NCBI RefSeq assembly: GCF_018977255.1
Contig: NW_024704757.1
Location: 7,378,001-7,442,000 of the forward strand
DNA length: 64,000 nucleotides
Source of the DNA: Callorhinchus milii
Taxonomy: Eukaryota
Direction: 5' to 3'
Below are positions 15,001 to 30,000 of this stretch, piece after piece; the stretch's first letter is position 1, and every line of letters starts with the position of its first letter. The position numbers were made by a program.

Positions 15001-18000
15001 ACAACATCGCGATCACTGGGTGATTCTATAAAAGTAAATCTGCATTTCCGCACACAAAAGAAACCATTAATTACAAAGTATTGCAAAACAACAACAACAA
15101 CAAGATTCCATTTATAGAGCGCCTTTCACGTCAGGAGGACGTCCCAAGGCGCTGCACAGTTGGGTCATGACCCGAGCAGTGGGGAAATGGTCAGGGTGAG
15201 GGAAGGGAGGGAGCGAGGAGGGGGGAAATGGTCAGGGTGAGGAGAGGGGAGGGAGGGAGCGAGGACGAGGAGGGGGAAATGGTCAGGGTGAGGGGAGGGA
15301 AGGGAGGGAGCGAGGAGTGGGAAGAGAGTCGAGAGGGGAGCTGAAGGCTCGGTCAAAGAGAAGCAATCTTGAGATCGGTTCCTCGATTTTATTTGTTCTG
15401 AGGGGAAAACTCCGTCGCCACCACAAAGAACTGAGCAACAAACCCGAGTCCATTCTCTTATCGATTCAATGACTTACAAAACAATTAAAAGTACCTCCTC
15501 TCCCGAAACGGACAGAGAAAGAGGATGGGGTGGGATAAAACATTCCTGCTGCCGATTCCTAGCCTTCTGCACTGCTGGCTCTATATCGCCAACCAACGAC
15601 TTCACTAAGAACTTGCCCCAGATACACACACACACACACACACACCACATACACAAGCAGCTGAACTACAACACAACACGCAGGGGGCGGGTATGTTTCT
15701 CTCTCCATCTCCCGCTCACTTTGCAAATACTGCCATTCCTCCTCTTCCTCGCACTGGCTCCAAGAGAATTTTTTTTCTGATGTTGGAGGAGGGGAAAGAG
15801 GAAGAGAGAGGGAGGAAGAAAGGAAAAAAAAAATGCCCCATCGCTCCCCACCTTCCCACTAACTTACTCATCCCCGTCCGGACATATCCCCGTCGTCTCG
15901 TCGTATTTGGTGCAATAAACGTCCGGGCTGTAGTTGAAGGTACCGTCCCGCCTCCTGATGGGTCTCCTGCGCCTCTGGTTGAGGAAATGCCAATGAAAGC
16001 AAGTGAAGGGCCTGTGCTGCGCGCACTTGTGCTGCAGGAACAACGGGCACTGCTCCGTCCGGAACTCCTTCAGGTATCTGCGGGGGAGGAGGAGGGGACG
16101 ACAATAAAACATCTCAATACACATTACACATAGCGGTGACTTACTGGCGGGAGAGCCGAGGCGGGCCCTGTGGAAGAGGCTCGGCGGCTCCTGAGGTAAA
16201 AGAGCTGCCGCGAGCTGGGCTTTACCCGCCCGCCGCACACGCGCCGCCTCCTCCTCCTCCCCCCCCGGAGCCCCCTCCTTCCTTCCTTCCCGCTCCCTTT
16301 TCTTTTCCTTTTTTAATCTGTCGCCGGGAAGGCGCCGCTACTCCCGAGCTCCCGGCCGGGCCCGGGCCCGCCGCCGCGCTCGGCACTTACGTGTAGTGAG
16401 ACGGTTTCTCCGTCTGAGGAGAAGCGCCAGTCGCCGCTTTCGAAACCGACGGCATTTTTTAGTCAAAACAATGAACTGCGCCTGCGCGAAGTGAAGGGGG
16501 GGGGCGCGAGAAGGAGTGGGTGACTGCGCCTGCGCCGAGGGAGGGTGGGGGGGGGAGGAGTGGAGGATGAAGGGGTGACCGCGCCTGCGCGGAGGGGAGG
16601 GGGGGTGGAAGAGGCGGGGGAGGGACCTCTGCGCCTGCGCGGAAAAGGGGAGCGCTGAGCAAGTGGGTTCGGGGTGGACTGCGCGTGCGCGGGAAGCCAG
16701 GCCTACCCTTAAAGCGACACCTACACAGACAGTGCATCCAACAACAACAACAACAACTTGCATTTATACAGCGCCCTCCCTCCCTCCCTCCCTCCCAAGG
16801 AAGATTTATTTACATTTAAAACACCGCCGAAGGAGATTGTTTGGCCAAACGTGATTGGCGCCGGTTCCTCCATTGAAGCTGTCTGATGTCAGATTGCTTC
16901 AGTGGGGAGCATTCTCGCTTCTTGGGCGGTGGGTTCAAGCCCCCCACACCACCCCCCCCCCATGTCGGACTTGAGTTTGCCATCTAATCTGATACTCCAG
17001 GGTAGTGCTGGGTGTAGCGCTGCATTGTCGGAAGTTCCGCCCTTTGGATAAGAAGTTAGAACAAGGTCCCCATCTGCTGTTCAGGTGGAACTCAAAGATC
17101 CCGTGACATTGTTCAAAAAGAGAAGTTTCTCACGATGCGCAGGTACGTCGGTCACTTGCTTCGTGGCTCTTTGTGGGCCGTTGCTGCGCTCAAATTGGCT
17201 GAGCCGACAAAATAAAATAATAGTGATTCTTGGATTTGATGCCCCTTCATGTCAGGGGCACGTATCAAAGCGCTTCACGGGAATTACTGTCAATTGAAGT
17301 AGCTGGTACCTTTATAGATGAACACAGCTGCCAATTTGCACACAGCACTGCCCCTCATAAAGCCATGAGGTAAAAAAAATGCAGTCACTACACAGTTAAA
17401 TTCCTGTGAAGCACTTTGTGATGTTTTGACAAGATACATTGCCAAATCACTCTATAAGCAACTGCCAAAACACTGACTCTCCAGTGCCTTGGGACATCCT
17501 CCCGACATGAAAGGCGCGATACAAATGTAATTTTGTTGTTGTCGCTCCCTCAACTGTGCCTCATCTGTGTGCCTCTGGTGGCTCAAACTTGCCATAACAT
17601 GTCGATGCCACTCTGCACTTTTTCTGAGAAATAAAAATGAATATTTCATGTTATATAAATAAATAATAATCCTTGCATTTGATACAGCGCTTTTCAAGTC
17701 TTCTAGATGTCTTAAAGCGCTTCACAGAATATACTGTAAAGTGAATTGACTGTATATTTGTGGGCGAAACGTGGCGGCCAATTGCGTACAGCAGTGTCCC
17801 CACAAACAGTGGATTGAAGTGACCAATTTATTAGTGTTTTTTTTCCTTGAAGGATTATTATTGGGTGTGTGGAATAAGGAAACTTGCCCAAGGTTTCGCC
17901 CTGCAAGGAATCGAACCCAGATCTCTCGCTTGCAAGGTGAGTGTTCTAACCACTGAGCTACAGGACTCCAAATGTATTTAATTTTAATCTTTTGGTCGTT

Positions 18001-27000: not shown

Positions 27001-30000
27001 TTTCTCCCCCTTCCCCCCCCACCACTTGTTCTGCCCCCAGATAGCGCCTTATATGGAACGTTGTGAAAAAGCTAAAGCTGGATGTCTCACTCTTGTGTGA
27101 CGGTTTGTATGTGGCGCAATGTCTTGAGCCCGTCACAGCTGAGTCCATCTGTCCACATATTCTCTGCACTTCAGTACAGGGGAAGCAGGTGGAACAGTGA
27201 TGAAAAATGGAACCCCCATTGGAGAGACACGTTAGGGCTGTCCAGTTCAGTGCTATTTTAGGTGTGGAGTCCTGTGTGTCTCCCCTGGTGTGTGGTGGGT
27301 GTCCTGACTGTTCATATTCTTGCCCCTGCTGGAAAGTGGGGTGTTGAGAGCCACCTTGTTTCCTGACTGGAGACTCGGCTTCAGGTGTAACGTTTTTACT
27401 CTGATCTGGAACAAAGCGTCTCTTTCTGACATTCTGTTCCTGTTTGTATTTGACGTGTGACTTGAATGAGAGCACACGGTGATCCCAACTCTGTAACAAC
27501 CGGGTTGACTGGAGATCAGAGGGGGCTCTGCCTCTGGTGTGTGTGTGTGTGTTTGTATGAGTGTGTCAGTGAGGGCGTGTGCCCAATAACACCATGCTCT
27601 TGCCTGCAGGAGGCGAGCGAGGCCTACCTGGTGGGCCTGTTTGAGGACACCAACCTGTGTGCCATCCACGCCAAGCGAGTGACCATCATGCCCAAAGACA
27701 TCCAGCTGGCACGGCGGATCCGAGGCGAGCGGGCTTAGCGTCTCTCTCGCTGGCGGACATTCACTTCGAGACTTTAAACGTATTTTGGAAACATTTAAAA
27801 ACAAAACTTTTTTTAAACAAAACAAAAACAACTTTTTTTGGTTTTTATCGACTGCAAACTGACTTCTTGTGGAGATCAGAGCTTTATTTTGTATTTTTGT
27901 TAGTTAGTGGTTTTCAGTGTGGGAAGTAGCTAAACATTTTGTAAAACATTCCTTGAAACACCTTGGCTCAGGTTTGGATACATTTTTATCTTCAGTCCGT
28001 GCTCCCTTCACTTGTAACTGGCCGGACTCTGTAGTTTGCATGCGGGCAGCTGGGAGGGGTGGGTGGGGGGGGGGGGGGTTTGAGGAGATGCTGTAGACTG
28101 TGTTCCTTTTGCGTTGTGGTGACTTTCATTGGGGTTGGGGGTTGTAAATAAAACTTTCCACTACCTCAGCTGTGTCTCTTGCCTCTTTATTTCTGTTTCG
28201 TCCTTGTTCTCGCCTGTTGCAACTGTCAGGTGGTTTGGACTGCTTGGCTCAGTTGCAGCACTTTCACCTCTGAGTCAGGAAGTTGTGGGTTGGAGCCCCG
28301 CATCGGGCCTTTGAGGTCACTGGGCAACACTCTGGTGCAGTGCTGGGGGAGGGAGCGTTGTCCAGGCACTTTGTTTAGCCAAGGACCCACCTGGTGCCTG
28401 TTGAAGTGGACAGTAACGATCAAATGGCACTGCAGTATATTAAAAGATGAGGGTGGGAAAAAACCCCTTCATTACTGTGCAGCCACTGCATCGTCTGCAA
28501 ATTGGCTGCTGCGTTTGCCTGTACAGGAGTCCTGTAGCTCAGTGGTTAGAGCACTCACTTTGCAAGTGAGAGACCTGAGTTCAATTCTAGACAGGGCGAA
28601 ACCTTGGGCAAGTTTCCTTACTCCACACAGAGCCTAATAATAATACCTCCAAAAACAATAATAAATTGGTCATTTTCAATCTACGACTGTTTGTGGGACA
28701 TTGCTGTGAGCAATTGGCTGCCGCGTTCGCCCACAAATATACAGTCAATTTACTTTACAGTGTTCTGTGAAGCGCTTTGGGACGTCCTCCCGACGTAAAA
28801 AGCGCTATATCAAATGCAAGGATTATTATATTATTACAGGACAAGAATTCATTTGTTCGGGTGCTCCATAGTGATGTTTAATAACACTTTACAGTCTATT
28901 CTGTGAAGCGCTTTGAGACGCCGAGAAGATGTGAAAAGCGCTATATCAAATGCAAGGATTATTATTATTTCTTCCCTTTGTGAAAATAAGCAGAGCATTG
29001 CGATTAAAAGATCTCTCAATGAAAAGGTGGCACAGATTTGACAGGCTGAATGGCCTCCTGTTGGCTGCTAGAGCTTGCCTGGGCAGCCGCAGAGATAAAC
29101 ACTCCCGGTCTGATACAATGCACTGAGGAACTCCACAATCATCTAAACTTCGCACTATCTTTGCAATTCATCACAAAGATGTTTTTTAAATTTATTTTAC
29201 TTTAAAATTATTTTATTATAAAAATTTTTAAACATCCCCATTCGCAACTGCCAACATTTTCATTACGATGAGACAATTCAACCCTTTCTCACTTTGTGCA
29301 AACAAGGGACAATGAGACTGTTAAACCGAGCTTCCATCTGTGCCCTGTTCAGGTGGGCATTAAAGATCCCGTGGCACTATTGGAAAAGAGATGAGGGTTT
29401 CTCTCCCGGTGTCCTGGCTGACAATCCTGATAAAATCTGCCTTTCTTCTTAATTGTTTGCAAGAGGTTGCTCTGTGCAAACTGGCTGTCACAATCTCCTA
29501 CAATACAGTCACTACACTTCAAAGCATACCCTGTGAAGCACTTTGAGATATCCTCCCAATGTGAAAGGTTCTGCATCAAGTATTATCAACAACAACATCC
29601 TTTCACGTCGAGAGGATGTCCCAAGCTGCTGGCTAGTCAGAGTTTCGGATCCGACCTGGGGACGGCGGGGGGTGGGGAAGCAGGGTGACCGAAAGCACGG
29701 TCGAAGAGGAGGGTCTTGAGATGGGTTTTGAAGAAGGCAAGGGAGGGGGCGAGGTGGAGGGACTGCAGGATGGAGTTCCAGAGGGTGGGGGCAGAGTGGC
29801 AGAAGGCCCACCCACCAATGGTGGGGTGAGCAAGGCGGGGGACATGAAACGGGCGGAGGGCTAATCATAATTATCATCATTATTATTATAAGCATCATGT
29901 TGACTTCTTTACCAGCTAGTCCAAGAACACAGCTGCAGCCCAACTCCACTGTAGCTGAGATTAACAGAGCAGGGATCCACAGCCTCTCGTATTTACGTCT

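What the first reader, a model, noticed from the sequence alone, without database searches (positions are those of the whole stretch)
15868..28152. Intact H3.3 gene head-to-head with UNKL: probable retained ohnolog of the UNK-H3F3B pair
Seen: a complete spliced H3.3 gene transcribed divergently from a gene whose N-terminus is UNKL-type, with UQCC4 on its other side. Established: in human, H3F3B lies head-to-head with UNK (17q25), while UNKL neighbours C16orf91/UQCC4 (16p13.3) with no H3.3 gene between them. Inference: this is a distinct H3.3 locus from the vertebrate whole-genome duplications, lost in mammals but kept intact here. The protein is invariant, so pipelines would simply label it H3F3A/B and miss its identity.
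Basis: partly seen in the sequence, partly recalled or inferred. Interest (0 to 1): 0.72.

Follow-up and report, generated by a model that had tools for sequence, protein, structure and literature searches.

The report
Extra H3.3 gene beside shark UNKL
In the elephant shark an intact histone H3.3 gene sits between UNKL and UQCC4, mirroring the human H3-3B/UNK neighbours, so it is probably a third ancient H3.3 copy that mammals lack at this place.

Summary
The window is Callorhinchus milii DNA: three of its genes match named C. milii proteins at 100%. On the + strand lies a complete H3.3 gene: coding exons 26334-26461, 26730-26883 and 27610-27738, GT-AG introns, AATAAA at 28147, and no histone stem-loop. 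Each exon matches H3.3 chains. About 8 kb away, pointing the other way, are exons 1-2 of UNKL. UQCC4/CCSMST1 follows H3.3, then TOP3A, a MIEF gene and an LRR gene.

The ohnolog reading is partly supported. UNKL identity, gene order and orientation fit it, and 16p and 17q belong to a published 2R paralogon. Neither decisive test could be run, because no vertebrate genome collection was available. These tests are a separate UNK-H3.3 pair in this genome and a survey of other vertebrates. "Head-to-head" holds for orientation only; there is no shared promoter.

The literature searches found no description of a UNKL-linked H3.3. Extra H3.3 genes in non-mammals are already known. Interest is moderate.

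The parts
15868..16077 (-). UNKL coding exon 2 (first CCCH zinc finger); donor gtaagt at 15867
   Evidence: Pfam zf_CCCH_5 (Unkempt Znf1), E 6e-22. 69/69 identical to 44 of the 120 best hits, and 68/69 to 71 more.
16391..16455 (-). UNKL coding part of exon 1 (ATG at 16455-16453; donor gtaagt at 16390)
   Evidence: The peptide is identical to the N-terminus of C. milii UNKL proteins P0030, P0054 and P0067.
16476..16693 (.). UNKL promoter region: five copies of CTGCGCCTGCGC-like motif spaced 48-55 bp, in a CpG-rich stretch
   Evidence: family D1, 5 copies. CpG o/e 0.62-0.97 over 15800-16999. Any function is inferred.
21848..24432 (.). G/T-rich minisatellite, 32-nt unit, about 80 copies, ending about 50 bp before the H3.3 promoter-like cluster
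   Evidence: GC skew +0.77 for 22001-24000.
24485..24603 (+). H3.3 promoter-like cluster P1: ATTGG 24485, ATTAGCAT 24506, CCAAT 24539, TGACGTCA 24585, TATAAG 24596
   Evidence: These are motif matches only. The start site (about 24625) and a non-coding first exon ending at a GT at about 24729 are inferred, with no RNA data.
25370..25451 (+). Second promoter-like cluster P2 (three ATTGG boxes at 25370, 25417, 25447); possible alternative first exon with donor GTGAAT at 25512
   Evidence: Inferred. The data do not show which of P1 and P2 is used.
26321..26461 (+). H3.3 exon with start codon (ATG 26334; 42 codons plus 2 bases)
   Evidence: 42/42 identical to H3.3 chain 4hga_B.
26730..26883 (+). 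H3.3 middle coding exon (1 base plus 51 codons; carries AAIG)
   Evidence: Pfam Histone E 4e-18. The best seven PDB rows are all H3.3.
27610..28170 (+). H3.3 last exon: 42 codons, TAG at 27736-27738, about 430-nt 3'UTR, AATAAA at 28147-28152
   Evidence: 42/42 identical to H3.3 chain 5bnv_A. No histone 3' stem-loop. The cleavage site is inferred.
30411..31690 (-). UQCC4 / CCSMST1 gene (two coding exons, 31690-31580 and 30758-30411), tail-to-tail with H3.3
   Evidence: Pfam CCSMST1 E 4e-26. 100% identical to C. milii CCSMST1 P0241.
33300..44305 (+). TOP3A (many exons; GRF zinc fingers at the 3' end)
   Evidence: ORFs. GRF zinc finger Pfam E 1e-38. One exon scores 132 bits to human TOP3A 4CGY against 37 bits to TOP3B. 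The boundaries are approximate.
47478..50672 (-). MIEF (MID49/MID51 family) gene, three coding exons
   Evidence: Pfam MID51-like_C E 2e-79. Large exon 100% identical to P0123 over 99% of the 356-aa query. tblastn maps P0123 to three stretches.

Best explanation
The window is elephant shark (Callorhinchus milii) DNA. It carries a working-looking, polyadenylated, replication-independent H3.3 gene in the interval between UNKL and UQCC4. The gene is transcribed away from UNKL. The most likely history is that an H3.3 gene already lay head-to-head with the single ancestral unkempt gene before the early vertebrate genome duplications. Duplication of that block gave UNK+H3-3B on one chromosome and UNKL plus this H3.3 on another. 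The UNKL-linked copy was kept in the chimaera lineage and is absent from the same interval in human.

Shown: the gene anatomy, the identities of H3.3, UNKL and UQCC4, their order and orientation, and the species.

Inferred: the age of the linkage, the loss in mammals, and the use of promoter P1 (CCAAT, CRE and TATA boxes at 24485-24603) with a non-coding first exon.
For: 1. Gene intactness: ATG, three coding exons with GT-AG borders, stop, AATAAA, a CpG-rich upstream region and no stem-loop. Each exon matches H3.3 chains exactly or best.

2. UNKL, not UNK.
- 104 of the 120 best hits are named UNKL or Unk-like. Seven older bird and fish records are named UNK or unkempt; four of these carry the same PSV(S/A)K N-terminus and three lack an N-terminus. 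Nine have no informative name.
- 104 of 120 carry the PSV[SA][KR] N-terminus.
- Exon 1 is identical to C. milii UNKL.
- That protein falls in an 18-row named-UNKL clade (SH-aLRT 97), apart from two representatives with ...QPEKPQHYT N-termini.

3. UQCC4 lies on the far side, as beside human UNKL (recalled).

4. The species and a single contig are supported. The UNKL, MIEF and CCSMST1 proteins of C. milii all come from a contig of 16,789,714 bp.

5. Vertebrates have two unkempt homologs, Unk and Unkl (passage of PMC4161320). H3F3B and UNK are listed side by side at 17q25.1 (passages of 10.1101/683367). Regions of human 16 and 17 belong to one 2R paralogon (passages of PMC3560075).

6. The compact size, about 2.7-3.6 kb from either promoter-like cluster to the poly(A) signal, is of the H3F3B/ray-finned type (2-6 kb) and not the H3F3A type (9-13 kb) given in PMC6560044. 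GC3 is 0.77.

7. An independent landing of an H3.3 gene next to the one paralog of UNK, in the same relative orientation, would be a large coincidence (inference).
Against: - No other genome was examined. It is unknown whether C. milii also has a UNK-linked H3.3, or whether any other vertebrate has an H3.3 gene or relic between UNKL and UQCC4.
- The human arrangements (H3-3B divergent from UNK; no H3.3 between UNKL and UQCC4) are recalled, not tested.
- The two genes are 8 kb apart with transposon debris and a minisatellite between them, so there is no shared promoter to explain why the linkage would be kept.
- The zinc-finger part of exon 2 does not separate UNK from UNKL by score. C. milii UNKL scores 309 bits to mouse UNK 5ELH, and the putative UNK representative P0331 scores 306.
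- The window's exon 2 is 61/69 identical to mouse UNK, and one UNKL-like representative (P0299) is also only 61/69 identical to the window.
- The H3.3 protein is invariant and gives no phylogenetic signal.
Confidence: 0.6

Rival explanations
1. This locus is the cartilaginous-fish counterpart of tetrapod H3-3A. On this reading the UNKL-linked copy was not lost in the lineage to mammals. It moved to the 1q42-like region in early lobe-finned fishes and then acquired long introns.
For: PMC6560044 (passages) finds H3F3A only in lobe-finned fishes and tetrapods. It sits on a long branch, with no counterpart and no synteny in ray-finned fishes. The authors say its origin needs more study. Cartilaginous fishes were not in their 32 genomes ('shark' occurs 0 times).
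Against: The same paper reports three H3.3 genes in coelacanth: H3F3A, H3F3B and a third that groups with H3F3B-type genes. This leaves room for a separate UNKL-linked copy beside H3F3A. The gene here is compact and GC3-rich, unlike the H3F3A type. No sequence comparison with H3-3A was possible.
Confidence: 0.15
2. A DNA-level duplication or transposition placed a copy of an H3.3 gene into the UNKL-UQCC4 interval in the chimaera or cartilaginous-fish lineage. The likeness to the UNK/H3-3B pair is then coincidence.
For: The 8-kb spacer is full of mobile-element fragments, and a 2.6-kb minisatellite ends about 50 bp before the H3.3 promoter-like cluster. This is the kind of unstable sequence that accompanies rearrangements. 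Ray-finned fishes have three or five H3.3 genes, partly through later duplications.
Against: The introns are kept, so this is not a retrocopy. No flanking direct repeats or duplicated neighbour fragments were noticed, but none were searched for specifically. Landing beside the paralog of UNK in the matching orientation is improbable by chance (inference).
Confidence: 0.12
3. It is the H3-3B ortholog itself, moved from UNK to UNKL. The genome would then have no UNK-linked H3.3.
For: The compact, H3F3B-type gene structure and high GC3. The CCAAT/octamer-like/CRE/TATA promoter layout recalls the published human H3.3B promoter, but that is recalled and not tested.
Against: It needs a precise move between two paralogous sites with the same relative orientation. 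No evidence of any kind bears on the UNK locus of this genome.
Confidence: 0.08

Closest known systems
Human H3-3B (H3F3B) with its divergent neighbour UNK at 17q25.1
   Same: An intron-containing, polyadenylated H3.3 gene lies next to an unkempt-family gene on the opposite strand. The gene is of the compact type (for the size classes). The protein exons are identical to H3.3 chains.
   Different: The neighbour here is UNKL, not UNK. The far neighbour is UQCC4. The spacer is about 8 kb. The human arrangement is taken from recall and from gene lists in 10.1101/683367, not from sequence.
Human UNKL-UQCC4 (C16orf91) interval at 16p13.3
   Same: The same two genes, both on the same strand, with UQCC4 upstream of UNKL (window; human: recalled).
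   Different: The window has an H3.3 gene between them. By recall the human interval has none.
The unassigned extra H3.3 genes of non-mammals (third coelacanth gene; three or five genes in ray-finned fishes) in Muhire et al. 2019, PMC6560044
   Same: They encode the invariant H3.3 protein, have an H3F3B-like compact structure, and are neither H3F3A nor clearly H3F3B (passages).
   Different: That study had no cartilaginous fish and names neither UNK nor UNKL (the only 'unk' match is the word 'unknown'). Its Table S1 with gene positions is a supplement and could not be seen. Whether any of those genes is UNKL-linked is therefore unknown.
Human H3-3A (H3F3A) at 1q42
   Same: The same protein and the same three-coding-exon layout. 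The split of 128/154/129 coding bases is recalled for human and read here.
   Different: H3F3A-type genes span 9-13 kb with 4.5-10 kb of introns. This gene spans about 2.7-3.6 kb, with coding introns of 268 and 726 bp.

Membership tests
Histone H3.3 (replication-independent H3 variant) | Variant residues S31, A87, I89, G90 and S96 | tested here: met
   Read directly in the exon translations. Exon A is 42/42 and exon C 42/42 identical to PDB H3.3 chains. For exon B the seven best rows are all H3.3.
Histone H3.3 (replication-independent H3 variant) | Introns and a poly(A) signal instead of the histone 3' stem-loop | tested here: met
   Two coding introns with GT-AG borders; AATAAA 409 nt after the stop. 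Rfam found only 5 tRNA-like matches and no histone stem-loop. The stem-loop consensus gave 0 matches with up to 2 mismatches (the consensus was typed from recall).
Histone H3.3 (replication-independent H3 variant) | Expression outside S phase | not testable with these tools
   No RNA data were available.
UNKL (unkempt-like), as opposed to UNK | Sequence groups with UNKL orthologs | tested here: met
   104 of the 120 best hits are named UNKL or Unk-like. Exon 1 is identical to C. milii UNKL. The database protein P0067 lies in an 18-row UNKL clade, SH-aLRT 97. Caveats: only exons 1-2 lie in the window, the outgroup clade is unnamed, and the zinc-finger score alone does not discriminate.
UNKL (unkempt-like), as opposed to UNK | UQCC4 as neighbour upstream of UNKL on the same strand | tested here: met
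   Window. The human reference arrangement is recalled.
UQCC4 / CCSMST1 | Pfam CCSMST1 domain above the curated cut-off | tested here: met
   91.4 bits against a cut-off of 26.1. All 44 hits with E<=1e-5 (of 46 candidates) carry PF15013, many named ubiquinol-cytochrome c reductase complex assembly factor 4.
2R ohnolog of the UNK/H3-3B block | Paralogous neighbours at both loci (UNK beside one H3.3, UNKL beside the other) | tested here: inconclusive
   The UNKL side is shown here. The UNK side is known only from recall and from a gene list.
2R ohnolog of the UNK/H3-3B block | Both loci present in one genome, and the locus shared by distant vertebrates | not testable with these tools
   No vertebrate genome collection was on hand. 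Genome contigs holds bacteria and archaea only and was not used.
2R ohnolog of the UNK/H3-3B block | Duplication dated to the early vertebrate genome doublings | not tested
   Only indirect support: regions of human 7, 16, 17, 19 and 22 form one 2R paralogon (passages of PMC3560075).
Bidirectional-promoter gene pair | Divergent start sites within about 1 kb sharing one CpG island | tested here: not met
   The UNKL ATG is at 16455 and the H3.3 promoter-like clusters are at 24485-24603 and 25370-25451, about 8-9 kb away. SINE heads and a 2.6-kb minisatellite lie between.

The most novel reading that the evidence does not exclude
The jawed-vertebrate ancestor inherited an H3.3-unkempt gene pair that was multiplied by the two genome doublings, giving at least three H3.3 ohnologs. 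These would be the UNK-linked H3-3B, a UNKL-linked copy, and H3-3A. The UNKL-linked copy survives in cartilaginous fishes. It may be the same gene as the unassigned third H3.3 gene of coelacanth and some of the ray-finned fish genes. If so, the published view that H3F3A is a late, lobe-finned-fish invention and that 'two genes' is the basic vertebrate state would need revising. H3.3 genes could then be named by their neighbours rather than by their uninformative protein.
Probability: 0.4. Interest if true: 0.5.

Novelty: new member of a known kind. Interest (0 to 1): 0.4.

Why it matters
H3.3 is an essential histone variant, and H3-3A and H3-3B are mutated in childhood gliomas and bone tumours. 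All copies encode the same protein, so their history can be read only from neighbours and non-coding sequence. The one broad study, PMC6560044, had no cartilaginous fish and left the origin of H3F3A open. A UNKL-linked copy in a slowly evolving chimaera genome gives a fixed point for sorting vertebrate H3.3 genes into duplication-derived lineages. It also lets one ask which regulatory programme each copy inherited. The gain is for gene-family history and naming; no new mechanism is implied.

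Tried and rejected
- Looked for further UNKL exons in 1-15867 with 14 full-length UNKL proteins and found none. A whole-gene test from the window is therefore impossible.
- Tried to obtain named UNK proteins. The 120 listed hits were all UNKL-type. The 150 representatives carry no names.
- Tried to label representative P0331 through mouse UNK structures. The scores do not separate UNK from UNKL: 306 against 309 bits for ZnF1-3, and 251.5 against 244.9 bits for ZnF4-6. 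This was rejected as a discriminator.
- My first set of diagnostic positions was off by one for three sites. It was corrected.
- FLII could not be confirmed. PDB and Atlas returned only generic leucine-rich repeats, so that name rests on recall.
- Literature: four searches for a UNKL-linked or third H3.3 ohnolog found nothing relevant. A search for the H3.3B promoter layout found nothing usable.
- A retrogene origin was rejected because the introns are present.
- A replication-dependent H3 gene was rejected because of the variant residues, the introns and the absent stem-loop.
- A human contig was rejected. The window matches C. milii proteins at 100%, with the next best species at 61%.
- The spliced (joined) protein models of H3.3 and UNKL were not assembled or searched; every search used single exons. 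The full-length tree used the database protein P0067 instead.
- Complex prediction, structure prediction and genome contigs were not used, because they do not bear on this question.

Full report
SPECIES AND GENE MAP

The window has no N runs. Three of its genes match named Callorhinchus milii (elephant shark, a chimaera) proteins.
- The 356-aa MIEF exon (47475-48545, -) is 100% identical to 'MID51 isoform X2 [C. milii]' P0123. The next best species reaches 61% (118 proteins at E<=1e-20 among 3055 candidates).
- The CCSMST1 reading frame is 100% identical to C. milii CCSMST1 P0241 (44 of 46 candidates at E<=1e-5).
- The UNKL exon 1 peptide is identical to C. milii UNKL.
- All three database proteins come from a contig of 16,789,714 bp.

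I take the window for C. milii, not human. The gene order is:
- UNKL exons 1-2 (-)
- H3.3 (+)
- UQCC4/CCSMST1 (-, 31690-30411)
- TOP3A (+, about 33.3-44.3 kb). One exon scores 132 bits to human TOP3A against 37 bits to TOP3B, and GRF fingers are present.
- MIEF (-, 50672-47478)
- A leucine-rich-repeat gene (+, from about 54.3 kb) that I recall as FLII but could not confirm.

THE H3.3 GENE

Coding exons are 26334-26461, 26730-26883 and 27610-27738. All splice sites are canonical, and the introns are 268 and 726 bp. The stop is TAG, and AATAAA lies at 28147-28152.

The exons were searched one at a time. The joined protein was not assembled or searched.
- Exon A is 42/42 identical to an H3.3 chain.
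- Exon B has H3.3 chains as its seven best rows.
- Exon C is 42/42 identical to an H3.3 chain.
- S31, A87/I89/G90 and S96 are all present.

There is no histone 3' stem-loop. GC3 over the 135 whole codons is 0.77.

Upstream lie two promoter-like clusters.
- P1 has ATTGG, an octamer-like ATTAGCAT, CCAAT, a perfect TGACGTCA and TATAAG within 24485-24603.
- P2 has three ATTGG boxes at 25370-25451.
- Each is followed by a possible GT donor.
- The acceptor at 26319-26320 lies 13 bases before the ATG, so a non-coding first exon is likely.
- Which promoter is used cannot be decided without RNA data.

From either cluster to the poly(A) signal the gene spans about 2.7-3.6 kb. This falls in the 2-6 kb class that PMC6560044 gives for H3F3B and ray-finned-fish genes, not the 9-13 kb class of H3F3A (passages).

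THE LEFT GENE

Exon 1 is 16455-16391 and exon 2 is 16077-15868, both on the - strand with gtaagt donors. No further exon lies in 1-15867.

Evidence that it is UNKL:
- Exon 2 found 1812 proteins at E<=1e-10. Of the 120 listed, 104 are named UNKL or 'Unk like zinc finger'. Seven are named UNK or unkempt; these are older bird records and one fish isoform. Nine have no informative name.
- Of the 120, 44 are 69/69 identical and 71 are 68/69 identical. 104 carry the PSV[SA][KR] N-terminus seen in the window.
- Mouse UNK (PDB 5ELH) is 61/69 identical.

Because only two exons are in the window, I used the database protein P0067 (C. milii UNKL, identical to the window in both exons) for a tree. It was combined with 17 other named UNKL proteins (18 of the 120 hits) and 18 of the 150 unnamed representatives.
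- P0067 sits in a cartilaginous-fish group of 7 (SH-aLRT 100).
- That group lies inside an 18-row UNKL clade (SH-aLRT 97).
- Two representatives with ...QPEKPQHYT N-termini form a separate clade (SH-aLRT 99).

Rows left out of the tree:
- the other 102 named hits
- all representatives not among the 18 chosen
- three long ones that looked mammalian

Weak points:
- Zinc-finger scores to mouse UNK do not separate the two paralogs.
- The tree used the quick method.

THE SPACE BETWEEN THE GENES

The UNKL start codon and P1 are about 8 kb apart. The stretch contains the following.
- Five GCGCCTGCGC-like motifs spaced about 50 bp, just upstream of UNKL.
- tRNA-Ala-like SINE heads at 17896-17967 and 19178-19249.
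- LINE-like reading frames.
- A 32-nt minisatellite of about 80 copies (21848-24432) that stops about 50 bp before the first P1 motif.

The pair is divergent, but it is not a bidirectional-promoter pair.

INTERPRETATION

The window shows the human-type UNKL-UQCC4 arrangement with an H3.3 gene added, facing away from UNKL as H3-3B faces away from UNK. The human side is recalled. A GWAS preprint lists GALK1, H3F3B, UNK and UNC13D together at 17q25.1 (passages).

Vertebrates have two unkempt homologs (passage of PMC4161320). Blocks of human chromosomes 7, 16, 17, 19 and 22 form one 2R paralogon, with chicken chromosome 14 corresponding to parts of human 16 and 7 (passages of PMC3560075).

The simplest reading is an H3.3-unkempt linkage that predates the duplication. 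I put this at 0.6. The decisive checks need vertebrate genomes that no tool here holds, and the H3.3 protein itself carries no signal.

Three rivals remain:
- This is the counterpart of H3-3A, which later moved (0.15).
- It is a lineage-specific DNA-level insertion (0.12).
- It is a moved H3-3B (0.08).

WHAT IS KNOWN

PMC6560044 (passages only; supplements closed) analysed 32 metazoan genomes without any cartilaginous fish. It reports three H3.3 genes in coelacanth and three or five in ray-finned fishes, and calls H3F3A specific to lobe-finned fishes. It never mentions UNK or UNKL.

Searches of the paper library found nothing on this locus (search listings only):
- H3F3A/H3F3B with duplication or synteny
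- UNKL with H3.3 (one unrelated paper)
- H3.3 with ohnolog
- zebrafish h3f3 gene names

Extra H3.3 genes outside mammals are therefore known. Their definition by the UNKL neighbour appears not to be in print within that library. The gene is almost certainly already annotated in public C. milii gene sets, which I could not check.

VERDICT

It is a new member of a known kind, of moderate interest.

Noticed in passing
window 30411-64000: UQCC4 is followed by TOP3A, a MIEF gene and an LRR gene that I recall as FLII. By recall, human UNKL-UQCC4 lies at 16p13.3 and FLII-MIEF2-TOP3A at 17p11.2. In the elephant shark these two human blocks are therefore contiguous.
   Followed up: partly
window 47478-50672 (-): The MIEF gene between TOP3A and the LRR gene is named MID51 in the C. 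milii record. Its position matches human MIEF2/MID49 (recalled). Its nearest bony-fish hits are named MID49 (52%). C. milii has a second MIEF protein (P0132, 52% identical) named elongation factor 1. The database name may be swapped.
   Followed up: partly
window 21848-24432: A 2.6-kb G/T-rich minisatellite (32-nt unit made of two 16-mers, about 80 copies, GC skew +0.77) ends about 50 bp before the H3.3 promoter-like cluster.
   Followed up: partly
window 16476-16693: Five copies of a CTGCGCCTGCGC-like palindromic motif, spaced 48-55 bp, lie just upstream of the UNKL start codon inside a CpG-rich stretch. From recall it resembles an NRF1-type site.
   Followed up: no
window 17896-17967, 19178-19249, 28528-28599, 32346-32416, 51674-51734: Five tRNA-Ala(TGC)-like sequences, followed by similar tails that end in T/A-rich triplet runs, are most likely heads of one SINE family and not tRNA genes.
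   Followed up: no
window 25560-26000: A G/T-rich imperfect repeat block (units of about 27-28 nt) lies inside the presumed first intron of the H3.3 gene.
   Followed up: no
window 33400-33930: A long C/T-rich simple-sequence stretch after the first TOP3A coding exon reads as proline/serine runs in several frames. It is probably intronic low-complexity DNA.
   Followed up: no
window 19560-20350 and 62740-63250: Reading frames resembling the C-terminal part of LINE (L2/CR1-type, by recall) reverse-transcriptase proteins are present. They are taken as transposon fragments.
   Followed up: no
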